Positions 1 to 11,192 of a DNA stretch of 64,000 nucleotides are shown one piece after another. Below the pieces are notes generated by a model. That model was not told the DNA's origin. It did no database searches and saw nothing but the letters and a program-made list of their open reading frames with translations. The position numbers and the translations under genes were made by a program. The number at the start of each line of letters is the position of its first letter. The stretch's first letter is position 1. This DNA comes from Escherichia phage EC100: the sequence record NC_105587.1; one strand, written 5' to 3'.

Positions 1-19
1 ACTATTTCAACCTTAATTA

Positions 20-754
20 TTATGCGACTTTTAATTTCTCAATATATTGTTGCGGGCTGCAACTATATTCTGCGCGTTCTTCTTCGGTCATACTTTCCCA
101 ACATAATTGCAGGCGGTCGGCTAGGAACTGATAATCATTATCATCCTCAAGAGATTCATCAATAAAGGTTTCGCCTATCAATGTGACACCGATTGATAGA
201 ATATCGTTAATAGCTTGCGCGTCCAGCGTTTTAAACCCGTATGATGCCGCCGCCGATAGCACGCCTTTATGATCGTCGATCATCGTAAAATCAGCGTTTG
301 GATATAGCTGTTTAAATAGCTCAAAGTAATGGCTTTTATATATAGCGTCTTTACTGTGGTATATTTCGCTAACTTTATCAGCTTCAAAATATTTGTGTAG
401 TGTATCACGGGAAAATACGCGGATATTACTATTACCACGACCACGCAAGCCTTGTTTGCGCAGGAAGTAATAATCTGATTTGCTCATTAGTCGAGCGGTA
501 CAAATAATGTTTAAAGTATTTGCGTCATTCATGCACTGGCGCATATATTCAACCAATGGCAATAAAGTATCCTGCATTATTAAATGATGTTTACACGCTT
601 CATTTTTATACTTATTTAAATCTAAATTGCCCTCATTATCAAAGCAAGGCGCGACACGATGGAAAGAATTAACGATAGTGCCGTCTAAATCCCAAATCAT
701 AACGCGGGAAATATGCGGGAAGCTGCGGGAAATATTCATAATAGCTTTATTCAT
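20..754 (-). CDS. dmp: 5'-deoxyribonucleotidase Dmp (HAD-family phosphatase)
   Basis: 244 aa; HAD motif I 'IWDLDGTIV' near N-terminus; GGAG RBS; size/position as T5 pre-early dmp. Confidence 0.8.
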   Translation of the reverse strand: MNKAIMNISRSFPHISRVMIWDLDGTIVNSFHRVAPCFDNEGNLDLNKYKNEACKHHLIMQDTLLPLVEYMRQCMNDANTLNIICTARLMSKSDYYFLRKQGLRGRGNSNIRVFSRDTLHKYFEADKVSEIYHSKDAIYKSHYFELFKQLYPNADFTMIDDHKGVLSAAASYGFKTLDAQAINDILSIGVTLIGETFIDESLEDDNDYQFLADRLQLCWESMTEEERAEYSCSPQQYIEKLKVA

Positions 755-841
755 TTTGTTACGTTCTCCATTAAAGGGATTAGATTAATTCAATCTAGCC
801 CACTAATTATATTTTATTAGTGGGCTATGTTCAATTAACTA

Positions 842-1240
842 TTAGAACGCCAGACCAAAAGCAAGAGCATCAGCGATAAAACTAACATCCTCACCTGATA
901 CATGGGAACGAATACCCGCGCAGGTATATACTTTTGCGCTGATCAATTGATCATCGAGGCAAGCGAGGCAAGGCGCGACAACTGCAAAGGCTAGACCGGA
1001 TTTTACGGCGTCAATGATAATCGTTTCTTGTTTCACTGTGTCAACATAAACACCTGCGGCCTTAATGTAGCTACTTGCGCGGCCTTGCGTATAGGCAAAG
1101 GTAGTAACCTGCAAAGCGTCATTGAAATCTAACAGATCATCAATAACGTGCCCCGCCTCGACGTGGTAACGTTCACCATTAGAATAAACCAGAACAATGG
1201 AAGACTGAGCGCGATCGAATGGAATATTTTGCTTTTTCAT
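842..1240 (-). CDS. hypothetical protein
   Basis: 132-aa ORF, compact spacing with neighbours. Confidence 0.5.
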   Translation of the reverse strand: MKKQNIPFDRAQSSIVLVYSNGERYHVEAGHVIDDLLDFNDALQVTTFAYTQGRASSYIKAAGVYVDTVKQETIIIDAVKSGLAFAVVAPCLACLDDQLISAKVYTCAGIRSHVSGEDVSFIADALAFGLAF

Positions 1241-1278
1241 ATTTATAAAACCCCAATTAGTTTAATAATGGATTTAAT

Positions 1279-1536
1279 TTATTTGATAATAATCTGCATC
1301 TGGTACGGCGTTAATTCACCGTTTACGGGTAAATTATTATCACTTAGCCACTCATAAAAAGCGCCATCGTCATCAAAAGGAACAATATCATTATCACGGG
1401 AATCGACGGAAATAATACCATCAGTATTAGTTTTGGCGGCTAGGATAGGCCCGAAGCTGTAAACTTTATCGGATTCCATTTCATCCGGTGAAATGAATAC
1501 TTTTTCGTCCAATGTTTTGGGTAATGTAACTTTCAT
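1279..1536 (-). CDS. hypothetical protein
   Basis: 85-aa ORF directly downstream of A1. Confidence 0.45.
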   Translation of the reverse strand: MKVTLPKTLDEKVFISPDEMESDKVYSFGPILAAKTNTDGIISVDSRDNDIVPFDDDGAFYEWLSDNNLPVNGELTPYQMQIIIK

Positions 1537-1591
1537 TTTTTGTGACTCCTGTAATAGCGGCTATATTTCAAGCCGCTAGGGAATAATTTAA

Positions 1592-3256
1592 TTACGCAAA
1601 GAATTTACCGTTCTTAAAGTCAATCAAAGTGCGTTGACCGTTTGCATAGGTAATTAAATGCGTTTGCGTCCAGCTTGACGCGCCAACGTTGTAACCCATA
1701 TCCAGACTACCCGCTACGCCAGCGGTATATACACCGCCGTAAATGCTGGCGGTGTGAGTGTGCCCCGTGTTTAACTTGCCCAATTTCTTAAACTGTTTAG
1801 GATTGCCACGGCTGCCGTTAATGCCATTGTGACCGTGTACGCCACATTCAATGCCTGCAATCTTGAAAGATTGATCAGTGGTCAGGAAAATGGCGTTAAA
1901 TTCACAACCTGCAACCTTGCGCAACGCATAATCTAGCACGTTGAACGTTTCGTCGTGTTCACCGATTGCCGCATAGATTGCAGCATTCAGGCGGTGATAC
2001 AGTTCCGCGTTCGCGGGATCGTCTTTGATGTTAGCATTACGATCATCAAGCCAACGGGATAGCGCCAAATCGTGATTAGATTCAACAATGATTGTTTGAG
2101 AAAAATCACGTTCCATTGATTCCAGCACGCGCCCAGTATCGATTAGATCATCCAAAACTTTATCACGTCCGGCGGCGTATTGTTTCGCTAGGAATACACC
2201 CGATGCGCGATTGTGATGGTTGCGCGATGTAAAATCATGCACGTCATGGATAAACTGATATTTTGGTTTAAGAATATCAAGCAAACTATTATCGCCAGCC
2301 CATGACGCAACGGCACAATCATCATCTAATTTTTCCGCATGAATATCGCCATACTGCAAGCCTAAAACATGCCCCGATGTCTCATAACATCCGGCGGGAG
2401 TAGCGCACACATTCAGATCATAAAACACCCCGCTTTCGTCCATTGTTTCAAGCTGGCGAACAAAAAATTCCCCATCCTCGTCGAACTCAACAATCAGCGC
2501 ACCGAAGTTATGCAGCGCCTCGGCCTTTTGTCCGGCTTTCTGCTGAATGTAGTTTTTGAGCGTTGCCGTTCCGGTTGAATACATACGGCGCACTACTTCA
2601 CCTTTTAAAGCTGGCACGCTTTCGGCGGTAATTTTAGCGTGACCAATCGCAAGCCCCTCAATATTGAGCGCGGTTGCAGTTTCTGCGAATCCTGAAAGCG
2701 GATAATCTGCGGTGGGCAAAACATTAATTTCAGCCATGAAAGCAAAACGGCGGTTATTTAAAAACACGTTTTTGCTGCAAATATATTTATCAAAAGCGGA
2801 ATCGTATTTAATACCGTCCGCACCTTCTCCATTCTGGAAGCCGTTTTTATTATAAATATACTTAGAAACAAGCAAATCAGCACCGATATATTCAGCGAAT
2901 TTTTCCAGACTTGCTAAAAAGTTTTTATGCGGGAAAGTATTATTCTGAATCGACGTAATAATAAAGCGTTTACCCTGTTTTACTTCCCATTGCTCAACCG
3001 TACTAGAAACAATTCCCGCCGCTTCTGGGCGCTCATCGTTTTTAATGGCTTTTGCTACTTTTGCCGCTTTCGGTTTAGCTGGTTTATTTGCTTCCAGCCA
3101 GTCGCAGATAGCGGTTGAATGCTTCGTTGTATCGTAGACCGCTTTTGATATATCGTCGCAGACTTCCAGTTTAGTAGCGCGCAGACGTTTACCATAGAAA
3201 TTAAAGTCAGCGGCCATTTTCAGGATAACAGTTTGCTTTTCTGCGGAAATAATCAT
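1592..3256 (-). CDS. A1: pre-early protein A1 (metallophosphatase-fold nuclease)
   Basis: 554 aa; calcineurin-like motifs 'GDIHAEKLD', 'GVHGHNG', 'GHTHTASIYGG'; size/position as T5 A1. Confidence 0.8.
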   Translation of the reverse strand: MIISAEKQTVILKMAADFNFYGKRLRATKLEVCDDISKAVYDTTKHSTAICDWLEANKPAKPKAAKVAKAIKNDERPEAAGIVSSTVEQWEVKQGKRFIITSIQNNTFPHKNFLASLEKFAEYIGADLLVSKYIYNKNGFQNGEGADGIKYDSAFDKYICSKNVFLNNRRFAFMAEINVLPTADYPLSGFAETATALNIEGLAIGHAKITAESVPALKGEVVRRMYSTGTATLKNYIQQKAGQKAEALHNFGALIVEFDEDGEFFVRQLETMDESGVFYDLNVCATPAGCYETSGHVLGLQYGDIHAEKLDDDCAVASWAGDNSLLDILKPKYQFIHDVHDFTSRNHHNRASGVFLAKQYAAGRDKVLDDLIDTGRVLESMERDFSQTIIVESNHDLALSRWLDDRNANIKDDPANAELYHRLNAAIYAAIGEHDETFNVLDYALRKVAGCEFNAIFLTTDQSFKIAGIECGVHGHNGINGSRGNPKQFKKLGKLNTGHTHTASIYGGVYTAGVAGSLDMGYNVGASSWTQTHLITYANGQRTLIDFKNGKFFA

Positions 3257-3346
3257 AGTAATAAAACTCCATTAAAGGGATTAGATTAATAATGGCAATA
3301 TTGCCAAATATAACGCCTCGAATAATAGGCGTTATAATTTGCAACA

Positions 3347-3544
3347 TTAATTTAAAGGCATCAGGCTAGAACTAACACCACAAGCAACGGCGGCAATAAA
3401 ACAAATCAGACCTAAACGCTTCGCTAACTTAGATTTACGTTTAAAATAATACGAATCTAAATCATTTTGAAAATAAGCGAATAATAGGGAGGCCGCCATA
3501 ATAAATAAGCCTAGAATTAAAGATTCAGTAGGGAAGAAAACCAT
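3347..3544 (-). CDS. small membrane protein
   Basis: 65 aa, two hydrophobic helices. Confidence 0.4.
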   Translation of the reverse strand: MVFFPTESLILGLFIMAASLLFAYFQNDLDSYYFKRKSKLAKRLGLICFIAAVACGVSSSLMPLN

Positions 3545-3598
3545 TTTTAAAACTCCTGATTTAAGGGAAGAAAATAACTATCGCTAAACAGTTATATT

Positions 3599-3623
3599 AT
3601 TGCCCCCTCACTAGAAGGGGGCA
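3599..3623 (-). terminator. hairpin terminator downstream of A2
   Basis: 9-bp stem TTGCCCCCT/AGGGGGCAA. Confidence 0.45.
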
Positions 3624-3634
3624 AGGTATAACTA

Positions 3635-4042
3635 TTATTCACCTGCGGCTTGTTTTACTTCATCTGCAACGCCTAACAGTTGCGCCACCGCGTCCAGCGT
3701 TTCCAGTTTAGCACTTTCAAGGCTTGCCAGATCATCGGCGTCTTTGATAATGCCGGAATCAATAGCATGTTTAGCGATAACGCGTACATAATGCGCTTTA
3801 CGGATTGAACTACCGCCGCCAACTTTGCGCGGCTTATCGCTTTTTTGATATGCTTTCGCGCTGGTCAATTTTGACCGAACGGATACAGGAGAAGCCGCGC
3901 CTACTGCTTTTGCAATCTCTTTCAGGCCGTCGCTATTTGCAAAATCTAAACCGTTTTCATTAATTAACTGCTGATACATGGAAACAGCTTTCTGAGTGTT
4001 TTCTTCATTCCATGCGAATTTTGCGGTTTTAGCGTTAGTCAT
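3635..4042 (-). CDS. A2: pre-early protein A2 (putative DNA-binding)
   Basis: 135 aa, immediately upstream of A1 in same orientation; shares leader motif with dmp and A1. Confidence 0.6.
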   Translation of the reverse strand: MTNAKTAKFAWNEENTQKAVSMYQQLINENGLDFANSDGLKEIAKAVGAASPVSVRSKLTSAKAYQKSDKPRKVGGGSSIRKAHYVRVIAKHAIDSGIIKDADDLASLESAKLETLDAVAQLLGVADEVKQAAGE

Positions 4043-4139
4043 GATAAAACTCCTATTAGTTTAATTTAAGGGATTAGATTAACTTAATGTTAATCGTTAT
4101 ATCCCCCTGAAATAAGAGGGATATAAAGTTAGCACTAAA

Positions 4140-4391
4140 TTATAAAACAGCTTCCCATTTTTCGTTGCGTTGAACAACCTTTACAACATCGCCGGATTTA
4201 ACGCGAACGCTAAAAACGGGTTTGCTGTTGTTACTGCGTTCCGTTTCAGCGTATACCGCGTCGATTGTATCAAACGGCATAAGCGCCGCGCCTTTAATAC
4301 GTTCGGCTTTTCCGGTTAATTCATCCGTTTTAGTAACGAAAGGAATAAAAACGGATTGACCAATTTTAGGCGCGGTAATAACGTTTTGCAT
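4140..4391 (-). CDS. hypothetical protein
   Basis: 83-aa ORF with AGGAG RBS. Confidence 0.5.
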   Translation of the reverse strand: MQNVITAPKIGQSVFIPFVTKTDELTGKAERIKGAALMPFDTIDAVYAETERSNNSKPVFSVRVKSGDVVKVVQRNEKWEAVL

Positions 4392-4617
4392 AATATAAAC
4401 TCCTAGTTATTTGGGGATTGTTCCGCATTACCTGCTAGAAAGTAGCAGGTAATAAGTAACAATCCGCTCGCCAATATAATCAATTTAAAGAACTCCACGT
4501 AGGCCGCTATATCCCGTTAGGGGGCGGGATGCTTTATGGTAAGCACCGACCGTCAAATTTTATCAAGTTATCGCTCTTTTCGAACTGGGTACATCTTAAA
4601 ACCTATCGGCTAGGCTG

Positions 4618-4821
4618 TCAAACAATTTTTTGAGATTTTTTATGATTTTCCCTCAGGTCAATCATAATGTTTCTCCAGATCATTTCTAAACCTTGCTGGC
4701 GACCTTGCAAATATTGCTTGAATCGCCATTTTACAGAATTTTGCGCTACTGTCAACAAGTTTTTTGTTTTGCTATCTAGTGCCTTGCTAGGCTTGCCAGT
4801 GATCAAAAGCGTTTGTTTCAT
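4618..4821 (-). CDS. hypothetical protein
   Basis: 67-aa ORF, weak RBS. Confidence 0.3.
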   Translation of the reverse strand: MKQTLLITGKPSKALDSKTKNLLTVAQNSVKWRFKQYLQGRQQGLEMIWRNIMIDLRENHKKSQKIV

Positions 4822-5332
4822 ATCGTCGATTCCTTATAATGAATAAGTTTACCGCCGATAGGCTTTAAGATATACCCAATTTTTAAAGAGCGTGGCGGTA
4901 AACTTCCCGCCGTGTAGTTCGTCATTGCCGCCCTACGAGATAAATAATAACAAACAACGAAAAAGGCGCAACCTTATTTTTGTAAAGAAATGTAAAGACA
5001 AACGCCACCGGACACCATGCGGCGATCTGGGCGCAGCGCATTAAAATTAAAAGAAACGGGCGCGCGATTACCACAAAATAAAGCAGATATGCAAGTAATT
5101 TTTTCATTTATATTTGCTTTGCCCTACTTGACAAAATCCAAAAAGCTCATGGCGGCGATAAACGGCTTATCCCCTTATGATGGGATGGCTAAAAACTTTA
5201 TTGCGTTCTGGAGCGTTTTAGGCCGCTTATTTTCGACTTAACAAATCATTAACATAAGCAAAATTGAAAAATAGTTTGAAAAGATCTTGACTTTTAAAAA
5301 TCAAGATCAAATGACTTATTTTATAAAATAAA

Positions 5333-5851
5333 TTAATTGACAATTCCATATTCAGCTTTTTTAATTTCAAGCCATAATAATAACTCTTGTAAATCATAAC
5401 CAGACTTACTAACACGCTTGTTAGTAATAGGATTCTTAATTTGAGCAGTCAAATAGTCACGCCCGTAATTATCACGGGGGCGAACTTTATTAACGTAAAT
5501 GTTTTTAGGGATACCATTAGCACGCTTACAGTTTTCATACTCACTAGGAGTGCGATTATAATTATTCTGCGAACTATCAACCGCGCGAAGATTCCAGATG
5601 TTATTATTACGAGTGTTACGATCAATATGGTCAATCATTAGCTCGCTATCTATACCGCCATTCATTATACAAAAGATAATTCTATGTACTTTGAATTGTC
5701 CCATGTCTAATAGTTCAACTTGCCAATAATTACCATTTAAACCACCTGCGATGGCGTGATCTTCTCGCCAACGTAAAAATGATAACGCTGTTTCATCATA
5801 ATAAAAGTAACTATTAAAAAGGTCATAGTCTATATCTTTATATTTAGGCAT
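5333..5851 (-). CDS. HNH homing endonuclease
   Basis: 172 aa; HNH motif 'IDHIDRNTRNNNIWNLRAV'. Confidence 0.7.
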   Translation of the reverse strand: MPKYKDIDYDLFNSYFYYDETALSFLRWREDHAIAGGLNGNYWQVELLDMGQFKVHRIIFCIMNGGIDSELMIDHIDRNTRNNNIWNLRAVDSSQNNYNRTPSEYENCKRANGIPKNIYVNKVRPRDNYGRDYLTAQIKNPITNKRVSKSGYDLQELLLWLEIKKAEYGIVN

Positions 5852-6040
5852 CTAATTGTTTCCTTATGTTATTACTTTAATCTCTATTATATTATATCAA
5901 AATGATTAGCAGACTAGCTAATGAGTTTTTCAGGATTAGTTAGCAGACTCATAATCACGGTAAAATCCTATTAGCCAACTAACTATATTTTACGATATAA
6001 TAACTTTATAAATTAGTTAGTGAGAAAAACTATCATTTAA

Positions 6041-6122
6041 GTTATCCACAGACTTAATCACAGCACAAAATAATTTGACACGATAGGCGGCGATATAAAG
6101 ACTTTTACACAGACTTATCCAC
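6041..6122 (+). promoter_or_regulatory. two DnaA-box-like sites (TTATCCACA)
   Basis: exact 9-mer at 6041-6049 and 6114-6122, both within ...CAGACTTATCCACAG... context. Confidence 0.5.
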
Positions 6123-6417
6123 AGCTTATTCTACTGTATAAATATACAAGGTAAAAAGGTAGTGTTAACAACTGCAATCAATTTTAAGCGGCCTAAAACG
6201 CTTTCTAACGAGCTAAATGCGGTGGGGTAATATTAAAGTAAAGCCTTCACCCGTCGCCCTGGTGGCTTCGCCGTGTTTTGCTCTTTATTGCACCGCTGCG
6301 CGGTTAGCATAAAATTAGGCGCTAGGCAAGGAGTAAAAAACATTTTCTTTTTTCTTGCCCCCAGCGAACAAATATCTATATCATTCACTCACCGATTAAC
6401 GAGGGAGGCCGAACAAA

Positions 6418-7427
6418 TGAGGCTGTATAAACCTGATAATGCCACCGTATTAAAGGGTGCATTGCGCAACCTGCTGGACGGTAGCAAGTCAACCAGCATT
6501 AAACATTTTATTAACAAGATTGAAACTACTCATCAAAACTTTTTTGATGACTATGATGCCTATGATATGGATAGTTTTTTGCCGTTGTATAAACAAGGGG
6601 CAACGCTTGTTTTATATAACCGTGATTGCCATATCTTTACAGGCAGGGGAGCAGGGCCGGATACCGATTTTATTGTTGCGCAGGGTAATAATATTGTTGC
6701 GTATCATAGCAATTCAGGCCGTCAATCATTTAATATAAATGTTTTTGAGCTTATTGGGCTTGATCTGATAAACGGACTTTCTAGCATTGAGGGATTTTTA
6801 GATGTTATCTGGAAGCATTTACCAGCTGGATGGTATAAGCCGGATAACGACGGATCTCAATATACTGGTATAATGGCTTTTGATGGCGATGGTAATTTTT
6901 TGTTACCACGGGAGTTATACCCGTATATTTATGATGGGGATATAGAAAGCGCTGGTTTTTCTTTCTGGAAAGATGAAGATCAGATTATTGACAGCGTAGA
7001 AAACCATGCTGTAAATTCTAACACTCAAAACGTTAATACTCAAACTACTGAAAACAAAGGAAAAAATACCATGACCAAGATTGCTAACATCGTTGCCGCC
7101 AATAAATCCGCTGTTGTAAACGCTGCAAAACTGGAAGCGGGTAAAATTGCATTAACTCAAATCACGAAAGTAGCGGCTAAAAAAGCACCGTTTATGATTA
7201 AAGGTTATATTGATACGCCTATCGGTCGAGTAGTAATTGCTAACCTGCTGAGTGTGGCGGTTGACCAGTACGCACCGACTAACCAAAAGGCGAAAGCGGT
7301 AGCAGGCGCGGCTATGGAAGCGGCAATGCTGGAAATGGTGCAAAGTTTTAACATCGCTGAAATGATTGATGAAATGGTGAAAGGTATTGATATTTCTACT
7401 TTTACCACTAGCACCGAAAGCGAGTAA
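6418..7427 (+). CDS. hypothetical protein
   Basis: ORF trimmed to ATG 6418 preceded by GAGGGAGG RBS; ~336 aa. Confidence 0.55.
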
Positions 7428-7436
7428 TAATATTTG

Positions 7437-7460
7437 GCGGGGATTGTTTCCCCGCTTTAC
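7437..7460 (+). terminator. rho-independent terminator
   Basis: GCGGGGA-loop-TCCCCGC then T-rich. Confidence 0.5.
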
Positions 7461-7492
7461 TATTCCCTTGTTAATTAATAGGAGGCTAATAA

Positions 7493-7987
7493 ATGGCTGA
7501 GGAAAAATACGGGTTTTCGCTAGGGGAGGAGAGCAAGGCAAAACATGATATGATCATTTTGGTCGATTGTCATACTGGCTATTGCGGTGAAGGGAATACT
7601 GAGGAATATTTTGTTCCTGCTGGTACGGATCTCGACGCTTTCGCCCATGAAATGGCTGTTGATAATGCTTCTCGTTTTGGTAGCGATGGTTACGAAGACG
7701 AAGAAACGGGCGATTGGTATGAGAATGATAATGTATATGCAAGCCTTTATCATTATCAATTAAGTAAATCCGGCACATATGTAAACGGCGGTGATCCTAT
7801 TAATTCCGTCATGAAATTAATTATTAAATATGGCGGCGTCGAGATAGTCGATAACAAAGCGGTAATATATGCAAACCGATTAAAACAGCTTGTTTATATC
7901 CCTGATAGTACCCGATGGGAGGAATATGCTGTTTTGCATGATGAATTAAAACGATGTTTCAATATTGAAACCTTACAAGTAGTTTAA
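7493..7987 (+). CDS. hypothetical protein
   Basis: 164 aa; AGGAGG RBS; followed by terminator. Confidence 0.55.
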   Translation: MAEEKYGFSLGEESKAKHDMIILVDCHTGYCGEGNTEEYFVPAGTDLDAFAHEMAVDNASRFGSDGYEDEETGDWYENDNVYASLYHYQLSKSGTYVNGGDPINSVMKLIIKYGGVEIVDNKAVIYANRLKQLVYIPDSTRWEEYAVLHDELKRCFNIETLQVV

Positions 7988-8000
7988 TGTAAAGTTTTGT

Positions 8001-8028
8001 AAAGGCCGCCTCTTATGGCGGCCTTTTT
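8001..8028 (+). terminator. rho-independent terminator
   Basis: AGGCCGCC-TCTTA-GGCGGCCT then TTTTTTGTT. Confidence 0.65.
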
Positions 8029-8094
8029 TGTTATAATGCCCTTACACCGTTTGAGGACGGTTGAAAATTTTCCCAAAAATTTTGGAGGCTTATA

Positions 8095-8325
8095 ATGGTT
8101 GCTTATTCTTCTTCTGACGCTCTTTTCACTGGAAAAGGTTGGGTATCAAATCGCTGGATCATTCAAGAAATGGTGCAAGAATACGGCATTGCTAAAACTT
8201 ACACTACCATTCAGGCGCTTTATGATAATGATCAAATCGATCAGCAAACGGCGGGCTTTTTACTGGATACCCTGAAGGCGGAACACTGTACTAAAAAACA
8301 AGCCGCAAAAATTATTTTAATGTAA
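8095..8325 (+). CDS. hypothetical protein
   Basis: 76 aa, GGAGG RBS. Confidence 0.5.
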   Translation: MVAYSSSDALFTGKGWVSNRWIIQEMVQEYGIAKTYTTIQALYDNDQIDQQTAGFLLDTLKAEHCTKKQAAKIILM

Positions 8326-8371
8326 CTAATAACGGGGCGTTACTTTCGCCCCACTAACTAGGGGAATAAAA

Positions 8372-8518
8372 ATGGTTATTTTTCGAGCTATTCTAGCAGG
8401 TATCTTGGGCGCTATTTTATCCTTTTTTGCTATAGCTTTCGACGTTCACGCGGTTATTATTGGTGCGGGTATCGCTGTTTTTTCTTATTTGCTGGGCTGC
8501 ATGAATAAAGGAGAATAA
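8372..8518 (+). CDS. tiny membrane protein
   Basis: 48-aa hydrophobic ORF (below ORF-track cutoff), GGGGAA RBS. Confidence 0.35.
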   Translation: MVIFRAILAGILGAILSFFAIAFDVHAVIIGAGIAVFSYLLGCMNKGE

Positions 8519-8520
8519 AA

Positions 8521-8733
8521 ATGATTCGTAACGTTTCCCTTGCTCGTTCAAAGGGTTTTAAGCTGGTGGACGTTAACACGTTCGAGCGGGAAGATTGTAA
8601 AATCGAATATGTAGCACGGAATAAAAACGCCTTTCGTGTTACAGAAAAGAGATTCGATAAGCGCGGCAACGTGATAGCTGAAACGGTTAAATATTTTGCC
8701 ACCTTTTACGCGGCCTTTCGTGGGGTGCTATGA
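8521..8733 (+). CDS. hypothetical protein
   Basis: 70 aa, start abuts previous stop. Confidence 0.45.
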   Translation: MIRNVSLARSKGFKLVDVNTFEREDCKIEYVARNKNAFRVTEKRFDKRGNVIAETVKYFATFYAAFRGVL

Positions 8734-8855
8734 AAAGCGTTGTTATTATTATCCTTGCAATGGTTGGCGGTTTTACCGCCACCTTATTTAAGAATGATCC
8801 CCTTTTACTGGGGATTTTTATGCTTTTATCTGGTTACCTGATTGGGAGGTTATAA
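8730..8855 (+). CDS. tiny membrane protein
   Basis: 41-aa hydrophobic ORF, ATG overlaps upstream stop (ATGA). Confidence 0.35.
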   Translation: MKSVVIIILAMVGGFTATLFKNDPLLLGIFMLLSGYLIGRL

Positions 8856-8856
8856 A

Positions 8857-9201
8857 ATGGTAATTTATGAGGGCAATCGCTTTGTTGCTAATTGCCGCCC
8901 GGCATTATTAGCAAACTACTTAAATCAGCTTTCACCTGAATATAAAGGCGTCATAAATATTTACGAGGGAAAGGCGCATTATAAGATCAACGCGGTCGTT
9001 GCCCGTGAACTAGCATTTCAATTTTTGACCTTCGCATCTTGTGATATTCAGGTCATGGGTGAGGCGTTAATTGCAGAAAATGAAGACGATTTTATTAATA
9101 TTTTTCGCAAGGTGTGCACCGAGCGCCTGATCATGAAAGGCGCGTATATTCAGTCAACTGCGGAAAGTATTGAAACAGCATTTAGGAAGGTGGCGCAATG
9201 A
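8857..9201 (+). CDS. hypothetical protein
   Basis: ORF trimmed to ATG 8857 (GGGAGG RBS). Confidence 0.5.
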   Translation: MVIYEGNRFVANCRPALLANYLNQLSPEYKGVINIYEGKAHYKINAVVARELAFQFLTFASCDIQVMGEALIAENEDDFINIFRKVCTERLIMKGAYIQSTAESIETAFRKVAQ

Positions 9202-9356
9202 AAAAAATTTTGATAGCTGGTATGTTTCCTTTGTTGCCTTATGTAATTTGCTGGGCTTTATATGCTCATGGTGCTAGTGTTCCCGGTGTGGCTTCATTTG
9301 GTGTATCGGCTGGTTTTCTAACCGGACTATTGGCAAGCGTATATTTACGCAAATAA
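9198..9356 (+). CDS. tiny membrane protein
   Basis: 52-aa hydrophobic ORF, ATG overlaps upstream stop. Confidence 0.35.
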   Translation: MKKILIAGMFPLLPYVICWALYAHGASVPGVASFGVSAGFLTGLLASVYLRK

Positions 9357-9374
9357 TTAATAACGGGAGTTATT

Positions 9375-9569
9375 ATGAGCAATAAAATTATTGTGACCAA
9401 AACTAGTACAATGGTTGATGTTTTTTACGTGCCCGATACGCCGGAAAACCGACAAGCGGTCGAGCGTGGCGAGTATGATAAAGTGATTTATGATCACGAT
9501 GGTTATTACCAGTATTTGGTCGATTCCTACGGGGAGGAGGAGAAGATCACGCATCAATTACCGGACTGA
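9375..9569 (+). CDS. hypothetical protein
   Basis: 64 aa, GGGAG RBS, followed by terminator. Confidence 0.5.
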   Translation: MSNKIIVTKTSTMVDVFYVPDTPENRQAVERGEYDKVIYDHDGYYQYLVDSYGEEEKITHQLPD

Positions 9570-9575
9570 CAACAA

Positions 9576-9598
9576 GCGGGGAGCAGATCCCCGTTTTT
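9576..9598 (+). terminator. rho-independent terminator ending + strand operon
   Basis: CGGGGA-GCAGA-TCCCCG then TTTTTC. Confidence 0.6.
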
Positions 9599-9750
9599 CA
9601 GGCCTGCAATCAGATACCCCTTTGTTTTAGTATCCCCGCCAAAATTAAACGCGTTAGAATGCGATTCAGGACGTTTTAAGCCTATATTAGAATTATTCAC
9701 TGCATAGGAATACTGTATATTTATACAGTAGAATAACCTGGGGATAAGTC

Positions 9751-9820
9751 TGTGGATAACGCTTCAAAATGGCTAGGATTCTGTCAAGTCAAATCGTGCT
9801 GTTGATAAGTCTGTGGATAA
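9751..9820 (-). promoter_or_regulatory. two DnaA-box-like sites (TTATCCACA on reverse strand)
   Basis: TGTGGATAA at 9751-9759 and 9812-9820, each within an 18-nt repeat GATAAGTCTGTGGATAAC. Confidence 0.5.
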
Positions 9821-9840
9821 CTTAAATAGCAGTGTTTCTC

Positions 9841-10020
9841 ACTTCCATTTTTAAATGAGAATCATTATCATTTGCATTTCACTATCTAACCGATAATCAT
9901 TCCACTTTTTAAATGAGAATCATTTCACTTCTTGAATAATTCTCATCCCCTTTCTTAAATGCAAATCATTATCATTCGCATTTCACTTTTTAAATGAGAT
10001 TGATTCTCATTATCATTCGT
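9841..10020. repeat. degenerate tandem repeats
   Basis: three copies of TTTTTAAATGAGAATCATT and two of ATCATTATCATT(T/C)GCATTTCAC. Confidence 0.6.
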
Positions 10021-10030
10021 ATTTAGGCGA

Positions 10031-10048
10031 GCAGGGCAATTGCCCTGC
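10031..10048. repeat. perfect 18-bp palindrome
   Basis: GCAGGGCAATTGCCCTGC. Confidence 0.7.
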
Positions 10049-10053
10049 GCTTT

Positions 10054-10655
10054 TGTGCAAATCCGACAATTGCTCCAAGGGTTACGTGCTAGCGTGTATG
10101 TGCGAATCCGACAATTTTTGGTAGTGTGCAAATCCGACCCTAAAAACTTTTGTGATGTGCAAATCCGACAATGAATTTTCCTAAAAACTCCAGCAATCAC
10201 GAACTGCGTTCGAATCCTGTGGAATTAGCTAGAGTATGTGCAAATCCGACATGTGTTGAGATGTGCGAATCCGACAAGATTTTTGTGACTTCGATTGGAG
10301 GGTGTGTGATTGTATAGGTTTGAGGAGAAGATGAGAGAGCGAGAAAAATTTGAGGGGCTAGAAGGATGTGGGCGCAGGATTGGTGCGGAGCACCTGATTT
10401 GCGGGGATTTTGGGGAAGATGTAAGATAATTTGGGAAGATTTGAGATAGGTGCAGAAAAAGTGAAATTTTATTAGCAAAATGGAGCAAAATAGCTTGACA
10501 AGTGAAAATTCTTGTGGCTCTAAAAACTCAGGCAATCATGGGCCTTCGGCCCGAAATAATGCTGCCATTTTCAGAAGATTATGTGTCCATGAAAACTTAG
10601 GCGATTGTGCAAATCCGACCATAAATTTCTAGAAACACAATGTGCAAATCCGACA
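10054..10655 (+). repeat. array of eight direct 15-nt iterons (consensus ATGTGCAAATCCGACA)
   Basis: copies at ~10054, 10098, 10126, 10155, 10236, 10261, 10605, 10640, all same orientation. Confidence 0.75.
10300..10500 (+). repeat. purine-rich (GA) tract
   Basis: ~200 nt of almost exclusively G/A/T with GAGA/GGGG runs on + strand. Confidence 0.5.
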
Positions 10656-10679
10656 GTAATTTCTGGAAATGTGTTTTCA

Positions 10680-10830
10680 AAAAAATGTCTCCTAGAAATA
10701 ACCGCCCTCCCAATAACCGCCCTGTATTAAACCGCCTAGTATATGTTCCTAGAAACTTAGGAGAACCGCCCACTAGGAGTGTGGTATCTCGTGAGAACTC
10801 TGGAGTTTCTAGGAAAGTGTTGTGCCATCC
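10680..10830. repeat. short repeats (AACCGCCC x4, (T)CTAGAAA x5)
   Basis: clustered short direct repeats adjacent to the iteron array. Confidence 0.45.
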
Positions 10831-11192
10831 TAGCAGAAGAGCGGCAATAGGTGTATCATCTTGAATGTAAATTATGTGGTCAAAAGTTTTACTTTTATTT
10901 TAAATATAAGATCCCCCAGGGTTCTCATATAGAGCTTTGCCCCCGCCAGAAGGTCTCGTGATGTTTCTAGCAATTTATATTAAATTACTTATTAACTTGT
11001 CCTGTCGCTCCGTATCCTCCGCTACAAGTTAGTAATTTTAAATTACTGAACCACCACACCTTCTGTGTGGCAACTCTAAATGGTTAATTCTATTAACTCA
11101 TAGAGTTATGATAACATACATTTAGCTATCTGTCAACGAGAGTTTGTATTTGAGTCTCGGTACAGGTATTGTGCACCGAGACTTGCAGGATC

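What the first reader, a model, noticed from the sequence alone, without database searches (positions are those of the whole stretch)
771..4082. Conserved leader motif shared by the three pre-early genes dmp, A1 and A2
Reverse-strand sequence TTAATCTAATCCCTT(T)AA occurs three times (771-788, 3272-3289, 4066-4082), each immediately upstream of the GGAG ribosome-binding site of dmp, A1 and A2. I did not see it upstream of any other gene in the window. A shared element so tightly placed suggests a common control signal for first-step-transfer genes, such as a pre-early promoter core, RNA processing site or translational operator.
Basis: partly seen in the sequence, partly recalled or inferred. 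Interest (0 to 1): 0.45.

Follow-up and report, generated by a model that had tools for sequence, protein, structure and literature searches.

The report
Shared leader motif of T5-like pre-early genes
A short CCC-containing sequence just upstream of the ribosome-binding sites of the first genes a T5-like phage expresses is real, strongly conserved and specific to that gene class, but it is not a promoter, is shorter than first described, is not limited to dmp, A1 and A2, and most likely acts on the messenger RNA at translation initiation.

Summary
The window is Escherichia phage EC122 (Tequintavirus). TTAATCTAATCCCTT occurs exactly three times on the minus strand (774-788, 3275-3289, 4068-4082), upstream of dmp, A1 and A2; no shuffle reached this count. 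Comparison with 40 close and 3 intermediate relatives changes the picture.

1. Only the 3' half is conserved, as WATCCCTTWAWT. Its pairwise identity is 0.88-0.94, against 0.51-0.67 for the 12 nt just upstream and 0.62-0.84 for third codon positions. The 5' half, TTAATCT, is an allele that comes and goes independently at each site.
2. Degenerate copies precede at least five other pre-early genes, two of them in the rightward operon. In the whole genome TCCCTT lies upstream of the ribosome-binding site in 5 of 18 pre-early genes and 0 of 138 others.
3. The strong promoter-like sites lie upstream, inside hdi, so the motif sits inside a polycistronic mRNA. It lies in a G-free spacer downstream of hairpins that show compensatory changes.

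The motif is absent from distant A1-bearing phages, is not used as a leader element in other phage families, and matches no Rfam family.

Best reading: a class-specific RNA leader element belonging to the translation initiation region. The mechanism is inferred, not shown. A class-wide operator or cleavage site is the main rival.

The parts
770..788 (-). Motif copy 1 (dmp leader). Variable 5' half TTAATCT at 788-782, conserved core AATCCCTTTAAT at 781-770. GGAG follows at 769-766 and the ATG at 754-752.
   Evidence: conservation
3271..3289 (-). Motif copy 2 (A1 leader). Core AATCCCTTTAAT at 3282-3271, GGAG at 3270-3267, ATG at 3256-3254. Identical to copy 1 over 24 nt.
4064..4082 (-). Motif copy 3 (A2 leader). 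Core AATCCCTTAAAT at 4075-4064, then a G-free spacer; 16 nt separate CCC from GGAG (4053-4050). ATG at 4042-4040. The 5' TTAATC is also the 3' arm of a small hairpin.
3559..3570 (-). Degenerate copy (CTTCCCTTAAAT) in the leader of the 65-aa membrane-protein gene o65 (3347-3544). GGAG at 3556-3553.
4409..4419 (-). Degenerate copy (AATCCCCAAAT) in the leader of o83 (DUF7177, 4140-4391). GGAG at 4403-4400. The third C is variable among relatives.
1264..1274 (-). Decayed copy (AATCCATTATT) in the leader of o132 (842-1240). The same site reads AATCCCTTATT in T5 and in most relatives.
7461..7475 (+). Core copy in the rightward pre-early operon: TATTCCCTTGTTAAT, downstream of a hairpin (7436-7456) and 12 nt upstream of AGGAGG of gene 7493-7987.
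8068..8084 (+). Related copy TTTTCCCAAAAATTTT in the leader of rightward pre-early gene 8095-8325. The CCC is invariant among relatives while the A-run length varies.
785..838 (-). Intercistronic hairpin upstream of the dmp copy (arms 785-807 and 816-838, 87% complementary). Relatives carry different hairpin sequences at this position, with compensatory changes.
   Evidence: (I11)
3293..3348 (-). Hairpin (arms 3297-3318 and 3327-3348) plus the palindrome TGGCAATATTGCCA (3293-3306), upstream of the A1 copy.
   Evidence: (I22)
4077..4127 (-). Two hairpins upstream of the A2 copy. The first is a GC-rich stem (about 4097-4127) with four different pair types at one position among relatives. The second is GATTAAC-ATTAA-GTTAATC (4077-4095), invariant in sequence.
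4593..4755 (-). The two strong sigma-70-type promoter-like sites of the leftward operon, inside hdi (TTGACA-16-TAAAAT at 4755->4728 and TTGACA-17-TAAGAT at 4621->4593). They place all three motif copies inside the transcript.

Best explanation
The element is a cis-acting signal in the pre-early messenger RNA. It is a roughly 12-nt core, 5'-WAUCCCUUWAWU-3', set in a G-free and largely unpaired A/U-rich spacer. The spacer lies between a structure-conserved intercistronic hairpin and the GGAG Shine-Dalgarno sequence of each cistron, on polycistronic transcripts made by host RNA polymerase from promoters upstream. It belongs to the translation initiation region of the gene behind it. Most likely it helps the 30S subunit load next to the Shine-Dalgarno sequence, as an unstructured standby or S1-type platform. 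The hairpin would insulate it from upstream coding RNA and stabilise the upstream segment. The invariant CCC implies a sequence-specific contact whose partner is unknown.

Shown: position, strand, class specificity, purifying selection, hairpin covariation and location inside the operon.
Inferred: that the element acts on RNA, at translation initiation, and positively.

The perfect 15-24-nt identity of the three copies in this phage reflects a lineage-specific allele of the variable 5' flank, two tandem TAATC units. It is not part of the conserved signal.
For: Strand and position. All copies are on the sense strand, 6-17 nt upstream of GGAG, and each gene keeps its own spacing across phages: dmp 6, A1 6, o65 7, o83 10, o132 14, A2 16.

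Selection. Mean pairwise identity among 28 distinct phage loci is 0.88-0.94 for the core, 0.51-0.67 for the 12 nt upstream, 0.71-0.75 for the last 12 nt before ATG, and 0.62-0.84 for third codon positions. CCC is invariant in the alignments, and T is strongly preferred at the two positions after it.

Retention in relatives. In My1-like relatives (A1 66-68% identical) the motif stands in front of 5-6 genes, including several with no detected homologue among the window's pre-early proteins (ATCCCTTTGATTGGAG, TATCCCTTAATTGGAG).

Class specificity. TCCCTT lies in -45..-8 of 5 of 18 pre-early genes and 0 of 138 other genes of the whole EC122 genome (Fisher p = 1.2e-5). It occurs in both divergent pre-early operons.

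Unstructured leader. The G-free run upstream of the Shine-Dalgarno sequence has a median of 19 nt in pre-early genes and 7 nt in other genes with spacers of at least 30 nt (Mann-Whitney p = 8e-4). The A1 and A2 cores are mostly unpaired in partition-function folds.

Hairpins. The upstream hairpins keep their structure through compensatory changes. Six of the predicted pairs in each of the A2 and dmp alignments have both-sided changes, and one pair shows AU/CG/GC/UA.

Inside the transcript. Strong promoter-like sites lie upstream in hdi, matching the T5 annotation and the literature.
Against: There is no experimental datum on transcripts or translation for this element. A general ribosome-loading platform would not obviously need an invariant CCC. 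It also would not be expected to be confined to one phage clade: the motif is absent from A1-bearing relatives at 36-47% identity, and the exact 15-mer is never in a leader position in other viral contigs. Complementarity to 16S rRNA is not significant against the whole rRNA. The spacing to GGAG varies threefold between genes. Some pre-early genes lack the motif (hdi, gene 6417, several rightward genes), so it is not required for pre-early expression as such. The class-specificity pattern was chosen after looking at the data.
Confidence: 0.42

Rival explanations
1. Class-wide post-transcriptional operator. A trans-acting factor made or modified after infection (candidates: a conserved pre-early protein such as A1, A2 or gp007/DUF7177, or a host RNA-binding protein) recognises AUCCCUU next to the Shine-Dalgarno sequence. 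It then represses translation or cleaves the mRNA, giving the coordinated shut-off of pre-early protein synthesis. This would be analogous to T4 RegA (repressor) or RegB (endonuclease cutting GGAG).
For: The motif is restricted to one temporal class and occurs in both pre-early operons. The sequence-specific core (CCC) is invariant where a mere unstructured spacer would tolerate change. The motif is confined to the clade in which dmp, A2 and o83 homologues were detectable next to A1, and is absent from distant A1 loci lacking them. Six of the seven leftward genes use GGAG. A1-dependent shut-off of pre-early expression is documented but mechanistically unexplained (PMC10644984; 10.64898/2026.04.02.716235).
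Against: No factor has been identified. Pfam gives no RNA-binding domain for any of the eight leftward pre-early proteins. The single-sequence model of o83 was too poor to use (pLDDT 53). Spacing of 6-17 nt to the Shine-Dalgarno sequence is awkward for an operator that must occlude it. The published shut-off is attributed to transcription, through A1 association with RNA polymerase.
Confidence: 0.2
2. RNA processing and stability module. The hairpin plus the single-stranded A/U-rich motif is an endonuclease entry site (RNase E, or RNase III in the longer stems) that cuts the polycistronic pre-early RNA into monocistronic units. The hairpin would protect the new 3' end and the motif would form the new 5' leader, as with RNase III sites between T7 early genes.
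For: Every strong copy lies 10-25 nt downstream of a hairpin whose structure, not sequence, is conserved. The dmp hairpin in this phage has 23-nt arms (I11). The motif region is A/U-rich and predicted to be single-stranded.
Against: Most hairpins are only 10-12 bp, short for RNase III. o132 has the motif without a hairpin in this window. The conserved CCC is not part of any known RNase E preference (own knowledge: RN|WUU). Conservation extends to GGAG as one unit, which fits a translation signal better.
Confidence: 0.15
3. Module junction or gene-conversion footprint. The short conserved sequence marks the 5' edge of each gene cassette and serves mainly as microhomology for recombination between phages and between sites. 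The three identical copies are a product of ectopic conversion, with no regulatory role.
For: The same 13-mer allele TTAATCTAATCCC appears at the dmp, A1 and A2 sites in different combinations among 40 loci (nnn 18, Ynn 11, YnY 4, nnY 3, nYn 2, nYY 1, YYY 1). Hairpin types upstream of dmp are shuffled relative to the similarity of the dmp gene itself. Gene content between A1 and dmp varies: o85 is present or absent, and in several relatives the sequence upstream of the o132 motif is entirely different, consistent with an inserted gene. In all these cases the variable sequence ends at the motif. One phage has three tandem TAATC units (L009).
Against: This explains the variable 5' half and the perfect identity, but not the near-invariance of the core. 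The core is more conserved than synonymous sites and survives in My1-like genomes whose intergenic DNA is otherwise unalignable. 8-12 nt is very short for homologous exchange. Strict sense-strand orientation and spacing to GGAG point to expression.
Confidence: 0.08
4. Transcription-level signal: an internal sigma-70 promoter core, or a boxA-like Nus-factor or pause site acting on host RNA polymerase.
For: CCCTTTAA differs from the boxA core CTCTTTAA at one position. Genuine boxA-like sequences exist in the same operon leader. In this phage a TTGAAC-17-TATAAT promoter-like site lies in the dmp hairpin, 834->806.
Against: No -35/-10 pair overlaps the motif at any of the three sites. The dmp promoter-like site is upstream of the motif, belongs to one hairpin type only, and is missing in T5. 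In vivo primer extension validated only P11 and PH22 as pre-early promoters (PMC7472727). No aligned leader or 42 shows CTC in place of the central CCC, and boxA-like GCTCTTTAA and the CCC motif coexist as two distinct sequence classes in the same genomes. One antitermination site per operon suffices in known systems (own knowledge).
Confidence: 0.05
5. Epsilon-like pairing with 16S rRNA. The motif base-pairs with helix 17 of 16S rRNA (451-AAGGGAGUAAAGUUAAUA-468), the region proposed as the target of the T7 gene 10 'epsilon' enhancer. This would be a specific version of the translational reading.
For: AAGGGA occurs once in E. coli 16S rRNA, at 451-456, directly 5' of the epsilon target. One natural A1 allele, TATTAACCTTATCCCTT, matches the reverse complement of 451-468 at 16 of 18 positions, with its best duplex there (-15.8 kcal/mol). 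Against helix 17 alone, the motifs beat 93-99% of shuffles.
Against: Against the whole 16S rRNA the duplex energies are ordinary: the fraction of shuffles as good or better is 0.10-0.17. The window allele and the bare core pair best elsewhere, at 661 and 142. The half that resembles epsilon is the non-conserved half. Helix 17 lies in the variable V3 region: Citrobacter, Enterobacter, Leclercia and Kluyvera have AAGGTGTTGTGGTTAATAACC instead. From my own knowledge Salmonella does too, yet Salmonella phages keep the motif. Epsilon activity was reported to be independent of the 460 region (own recollection of O'Connor and Dahlberg 2001, not checked here).
Confidence: 0.04

Closest known systems
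T7 gene 10 leader 'epsilon' translational enhancer (UUAACUUUA) and A/U-rich S1-binding leaders
   Same: A short, G-poor, A/U-rich element in the mRNA leader directly upstream of a GGAG-type Shine-Dalgarno sequence of a phage gene translated by host ribosomes. It shares CUUUAA next to the Shine-Dalgarno sequence. Some alleles of the 5' half read UUAACCUUA, 8 of 9 matches to epsilon.
   Different: The conserved part here is AUCCCUU, which epsilon lacks, while the epsilon-like half is dispensable. The element is repeated in front of many cistrons of one temporal class rather than one highly expressed gene. Enhancer activity is untested.
T4 RegA/RegB targets (class-wide post-transcriptional control of early mRNAs at their translation initiation regions)
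   Same: A short sequence shared by the initiation regions of many genes of one temporal class, in a phage that uses host RNA polymerase throughout. GGAG Shine-Dalgarno sequences.
   Different: No RegA or RegB homologue or any cognate factor is known or was found. The conserved sequence is upstream of the Shine-Dalgarno sequence and start codon, not overlapping them.
RNase III processing hairpins between T7 early genes
   Same: Structure-conserved hairpins in the intercistronic spaces of a long early operon transcribed by host polymerase, each followed by the leader of the next gene.
   Different: The stems are mostly 10-12 bp and lack the internal-loop architecture. The conserved single-stranded CCC motif has no counterpart. 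Cleavage has not been shown.
T4-type PeSL cassettes (promoter-early stem-loop) at gene boundaries
   Same: A stem-loop plus a short conserved regulatory sequence recurring at the boundaries of small early genes in a mosaic, plastic region.
   Different: No promoter is present in the T5-like unit. The conserved element is tied to the Shine-Dalgarno sequence.
boxA (Nus-factor site) of rrn operons and lambda nut sites
   Same: CCCUUUAA versus CUCUUUAA. A hairpin lies upstream, as in the rrn boxB-boxA order. True boxA-like sequences lie in the same operon's leader.
   Different: The central C never appears as U in the aligned leaders, the 5' G is absent, the element recurs before each cistron, and it is fixed relative to the Shine-Dalgarno sequence.

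Membership tests
sigma-70 promoter (pre-early promoter core) | -35 and -10 hexamers 16-18 bp apart overlapping the element | tested here: not met
   The promoter scan of 1-11000 lists no hexamer pair covering 766-788, 3267-3289 or 4050-4082 on the minus strand. The nearest is 834->806, upstream of the dmp copy, inside one hairpin type, and it is absent from T5.
sigma-70 promoter (pre-early promoter core) | Primary transcript 5' end mapped just downstream | not testable with these tools
   Literature only. The characterised pre-early promoters are PH22 and PD/E20 (overlapping hdi) and P11. None is reported at dmp, A1 or A2.
T7 epsilon-type translational enhancer | Sequence UUAACUUUA directly upstream of the Shine-Dalgarno sequence | tested here: not met
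   The window copies read UUAAUCUAA (6/9), and this half is replaced by unrelated sequence in T5 and many relatives. The conserved core AUCCCUU is not part of epsilon.
T7 epsilon-type translational enhancer | Complementarity to 16S rRNA around nt 458-466 | tested here: inconclusive
   The best duplex falls at helix 17 only for some alleles. The fraction of shuffles as good or better is 0.014-0.069 against helix 17 alone and 0.10-0.17 against the whole 16S. The target is not conserved in other Enterobacteriaceae.
T7 epsilon-type translational enhancer | Raises translation of the downstream cistron | not testable with these tools
   Needs reporter fusions.
boxA / nut antitermination site | Consensus GCUCUUUAACAA (lambda: CGCUCUUA) | tested here: not met
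   All aligned copies have CCC, none has CUC, and there is no 5' G. Real boxA-like sequences occur separately in the operon leader.
RNase III intercistronic processing site (T7 early type) | About 20 bp or more of double-stranded stem between cistrons | tested here: inconclusive
   The window's dmp hairpin has 23-nt arms at 87% complementarity. The A2 hairpin and T5-type dmp hairpin have only 10-11 pairs.
RNase III intercistronic processing site (T7 early type) | Cleavage in vivo or in vitro | not testable with these tools
   No end-mapping data are held. An RNA-seq data set exists (PRJEB101990).
RegA/RegB-type class-wide operator | Shared short motif in the initiation regions of one temporal class | tested here: met
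   5 of 18 pre-early genes against 0 of 138 other genes for TCCCTT. Present in both pre-early operons.
RegA/RegB-type class-wide operator | Cognate phage-encoded RNA-binding repressor or endonuclease | tested here: inconclusive
   No RNA-binding Pfam domain in the eight leftward pre-early proteins. The o83 structure model is unusable.
Known RNA family (Rfam) | Match to a curated covariance model | tested here: not met
   No hit at or near the motif or its hairpins reaches the gathering score. All nine sub-threshold hits fall below it. Eight lie at about 7876-8110 and one on the opposite strand of the dmp hairpin.

The most novel reading that the evidence does not exclude
The CCC core is the recognition site of a dedicated trans-acting factor, phage-encoded or phage-modified. 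This factor would switch all pre-early cistrons off (or on) together at the RNA level. It would be a T5-type counterpart of T4 RegA/RegB and would supply the missing mechanism for the A1-dependent shut-off of pre-early protein synthesis. In that reading the clade-restricted distribution of the motif tracks the factor.
Probability: 0.17. Interest if true: 0.7.

Novelty: new variant of a known kind. Interest (0 to 1): 0.4.

Why it matters
How T5 times the burst and the shut-off of its first-step-transfer genes has been open since the 1970s. Only promoters and the requirement for A1 are known. A short, class-specific, strongly selected RNA element in front of most leftward pre-early cistrons, including A1 and A2, gives a concrete cis-acting handle. 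It can be mutated in reporters or in the phage, used as bait for binding factors, and looked for in existing RNA-seq data.

It also has a practical side. Phage engineers deleting or inserting pre-early genes should keep the unit 'core + spacer + GGAG' intact. The unit may serve as a portable expression cassette for genes meant to be expressed from the first 8% of the injected DNA.

If it turns out to be only an unstructured ribosome landing pad, the finding is ordinary.

Tried and rejected
1. Promoter reading. Rejected from the hexamer scan, the T5 annotation and the literature.
2. Rfam. No family matches.
3. Literature. Searching the motif as text, and boxA with T5, found nothing relevant. 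Davison's 2015 review (PMC4743489) is not held.
4. General enterobacterial-phage signal. ATCCCTTTAATGGAG has 91 matching stretches in IMG/VR. Only those in T5-like contigs sit upstream of a long ORF (dmp or A1); the rest are in coding or unrelated contexts.
5. Distant Demerecviridae-like A1 loci (36-47% identity). No TCCC-type leader motif.
6. Shine-Dalgarno sequestration by CCC pairing with GG(A)G. Only 3-4 weak pairs, with loop length varying from 6 to 17 nt and no covariation. Rejected as the main function.
7. Alternative pairing of the motif with the 3' arm of the upstream hairpin. Rejected because some relatives have hairpins with no G-run yet keep the motif (L020, L034).
8. A 7-bp stem between the end of o132 and the dmp Shine-Dalgarno spacer. 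Specific to this phage and not conserved.
9. 16S helix 17 pairing. Marginal. A first shuffle run timed out.
10. Trans-factor hunt. Pfam and PHROGs were uninformative. The single-sequence AlphaFold model of o83 had pLDDT 53, so no fold search was run.
11. The genome scan for the Salmonella V3 sequence returned other Enterobacteriaceae but no Salmonella record. The statement about Salmonella therefore rests on my own knowledge.

Full report
Identity of the region. Window 1-4500 is 100% identical to Escherichia phage EC122 (ON185583.1, Tequintavirus) and 88% identical to the left terminal repeat of T5. By collinearity with the annotated T5 record and by PHROG families, the minus-strand genes are dmp (20-754), o132 (842-1240), o85 (1279-1536), A1 (1592-3256), o65 (3347-3544), A2 (3635-4042), o83/DUF7177 (4140-4391) and hdi/DUF7416 (4618-4821). 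This is the leftward pre-early operon of the first-step-transfer DNA.

The observation. TTAATCTAATCCCTT occurs exactly three times, all on the minus strand, at 774-788, 3275-3289 and 4068-4082. Allowing 2 mismatches adds one coding-region match. Shuffles gave a mean of 0.33 matches and none of 100 reached 4. The dmp and A1 copies are identical over 24 nt that include GGAG. The coordinates and the stated sequence are correct. For dmp and A1 the motif abuts GGAG. For A2, 16 nt separate CCC from GGAG.

What is conserved. I fetched 66 loci encoding A1 relatives from IMG/VR, located the orthologues of the seven genes and compared their leaders. Three results follow.
1. Only the 3' half is conserved. 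The consensus anchored on CCC is W-W-T-CCC-T-T-W-A-W-T, with G nearly absent from -7 to +8. The 5' half, TTAATCT, is one of several alleles. Others are GATAAACTA at dmp and ACGTTTTTT, TATTAACCT or AAATTGAATTT at A1. Its presence at the three sites varies independently; only 1 of 40 related loci has it at all three. T5 itself has TTTTTTAATCCCTTTAATGGAG at A1 and CTTATCCCTTAAAT at A2. The 5' half consists of two tandem TAATC units, and one phage has three (L009).
2. The core is under purifying selection. Among 28 distinct phage loci its mean pairwise identity is 0.88-0.94. The 12 nt immediately upstream score 0.51-0.67, the last 12 nt before ATG 0.71-0.75, and third codon positions of the first 50 codons 0.62-0.84.
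3. The core is not limited to dmp, A1 and A2. In the window it also precedes o65 (TTCCCTTAAAT), o83 (AATCCCCAAAT) and the rightward pre-early genes 7493 (ATTCCCTTGTTAAT) and 8095 (TTTTCCCAAAAAT). A decayed copy precedes o132 (AATCCATT here, AATCCCTT in T5).

In My1-like genomes (A1 66-68% identical), intergenic DNA is otherwise unalignable. There, ATCCCTT(T)AATTGGAG-type sequences precede five or six genes, including several with no detected homologue among the window's pre-early proteins.

Class specificity and distribution. Over the whole EC122 genome, TCCCTT lies in -45..-8 of 5 of 18 pre-early genes and 0 of 138 others (Fisher p = 1.2e-5). The pattern was defined after inspection, so this p-value is indicative only. 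The element is absent from A1-bearing contigs at 36-47% identity. In 2.9 million viral contigs the exact 15-mer ATCCCTTTAATGGAG sits in a leader position only in T5-like genomes. No Rfam family matches, and I found no description in the searchable literature.

Context. Each strong copy lies in a G-free A/U-rich spacer. The G-free run upstream of the Shine-Dalgarno sequence has a median of 19 nt in pre-early genes and 7 nt in other genes (p = 8e-4). Each copy follows a hairpin whose sequence differs between phages while pairing is kept. In each of the A2 and dmp leader alignments, six predicted pairs show changes on both sides, and one A2 pair occurs as AU, CG, GC and UA. The CCC-to-GGAG spacing differs between genes (6 to 17 nt) but is fixed for each gene across phages.

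Not a promoter. No sigma-70-type hexamer pair overlaps any copy. The two best promoter-like sites of the leftward strand are TTGACA-16-TAAAAT (4755->4728) and TTGACA-17-TAAGAT (4621->4593), inside hdi. This agrees with the putative promoters T5P1/T5P2 annotated in T5. It also agrees with the statement that the characterised promoters PH22 and PD/E20 overlap hdi and that dmp, A1 and A2 are likely one operon (10.64898/2026.04.02.716235), and with the in vivo validation of only P11 and PH22 as pre-early promoters (PMC7472727). The motif therefore lies inside a polycistronic transcript.

Mechanism. Five properties are shown: sense-strand orientation, a fixed position upstream of each Shine-Dalgarno sequence, selection on a 12-nt core, a G-free and largely unpaired setting, and an upstream insulating hairpin. 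That the element acts on RNA is inferred from these properties. They define a unit, 'core - spacer - GGAG - ATG', that travels with each gene. Variable linkers, swapped hairpins and gene-content differences all end at the 5' edge of the core.

The most economical reading is that the core belongs to the translation initiation region and promotes 30S loading on internal cistrons of the pre-early mRNA. This step is inferred. The invariant CCC and the restriction to one phage clade are not explained by a generic A/U-rich platform. They keep alive a more specific reading: recognition by a dedicated factor for class-wide repression or cleavage, in the manner of T4 RegA or RegB. I could not identify such a factor.

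A processing role (a hairpin as 3' stabiliser with the motif as the new 5' leader) is possible, but most stems are short for RNase III.

Pairing with 16S rRNA helix 17, next to the proposed target of the T7 epsilon enhancer, looked attractive. AAGGGA occurs once in 16S, at 451-456, and one natural allele matches the complement of 451-468 at 16 of 18 positions. The idea does not hold up, for three reasons:
- The energies are ordinary against the whole rRNA.
- The epsilon-like half is the dispensable half.
- The target lies in the variable V3 region and differs in other Enterobacteriaceae.

A boxA function is rejected. The core never reads CUC in the aligned leaders, and it coexists with true boxA-like sequences.

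The perfect identity of the three copies in this phage is best explained by a shared allele of the variable flank. It probably spread by exchange anchored on the conserved core.

Verdict. The element is a previously undescribed (as far as I could search), clade-restricted, class-specific leader motif of pre-early cistrons. It is most likely part of their translation initiation regions, and its mechanism is untested. It is of moderate interest because it gives a mutable handle on the regulation of T5 pre-early genes.

Noticed in passing
window ~4875-4892 (- strand); L033 3583-3600; L020 ~1288; L039 ~1432, ~1736, ~2215; L038 ~1469, ~1779, ~1985: boxA-like sequences in sense orientation lie in the leader of the leftward pre-early operon. 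The window has CGCTCTTTAAAAATTGGG about 55 nt upstream of the hdi ATG. All 33 close Tequintavirus loci checked have at least one copy. Epseptimavirus-like loci have a second copy (TGCTCTTTAACAATTTGG, identical to the E. coli rrn boxA as I recall it, or TGCTCTTTAAAAATTTGG) starting about 13 nt after the likely start of the TTGACA-17-TAAGAT promoter. My1-like loci have three. Distant A1 loci have none of this type in sense orientation. This suggests Nus-factor (rrn-type) antitermination of pre-early transcription. I found no paper linking boxA and T5.
   Followed up: partly
window 4572-4610 and 4854-4892: A 39-nt inverted repeat (85% complementary; T5 'inverted repeat A/A'') duplicates, in opposite orientation, the -10 and initial transcribed region of the PD/E20-like promoter. 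In this phage, transcripts from that promoter therefore carry the complement of the boxA-like sequence, and the sense copy lies upstream of hdi.
   Followed up: no
window 806-834 (- strand): A good sigma-70-like promoter (TTGAAC-17-TATAAT) is embedded in the hairpin upstream of dmp. The same hexamers are present in the related hairpin type of L006 and L033-L035, but not in the T5-type hairpin. This could be an optional dmp-specific promoter.
   Followed up: partly
window 10047-10661: There are six or more direct repeats of ATGTGC(A/G)AATCCGACA in the large non-coding region at the end of the terminal repeat. They correspond to T5 'direct repeat D' near the injection-stop region.
   Followed up: no
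window 6019-6148 and 9714-9843: A 130-nt inverted repeat (78% complementary) flanks the rightward pre-early genes. It carries TTATCCACA-type DnaA-box-like sequences (CTGTGGATAAC) and matches the IRC-spacer-IRD elements discussed by Davison.
   Followed up: no
L013, L020, L021 (about 90 nt upstream of the o132 orthologue): In several relatives the sequence upstream of the o132 motif is entirely different, consistent with an extra gene inserted between A1 and o132. Its 3' end abuts or overlaps the motif (…GAATTTAATATCCCTTATTAAACTAATTGGAG). o85 is present in only some genomes. Gene-content differences in this stretch end at the 5' edge of the motif.
   Followed up: partly
window 753-769 with 841-852 (- strand): In this phage only, the last codons of o132 (GCGUUCU) can pair with AGAACGU in the Shine-Dalgarno-to-start spacer of dmp, enclosing the hairpin and the motif. 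This could be a translational-coupling stem, but it is not conserved in T5 or other relatives.
   Followed up: partly
window 4140-4391 (- strand): o83 (DUF7177) is one of four pre-early genes reported as conserved in all T5-like phages. The single-sequence AlphaFold model predicts it to be all-beta, but at low confidence (pLDDT 53). Its function is unknown.
   Followed up: partly
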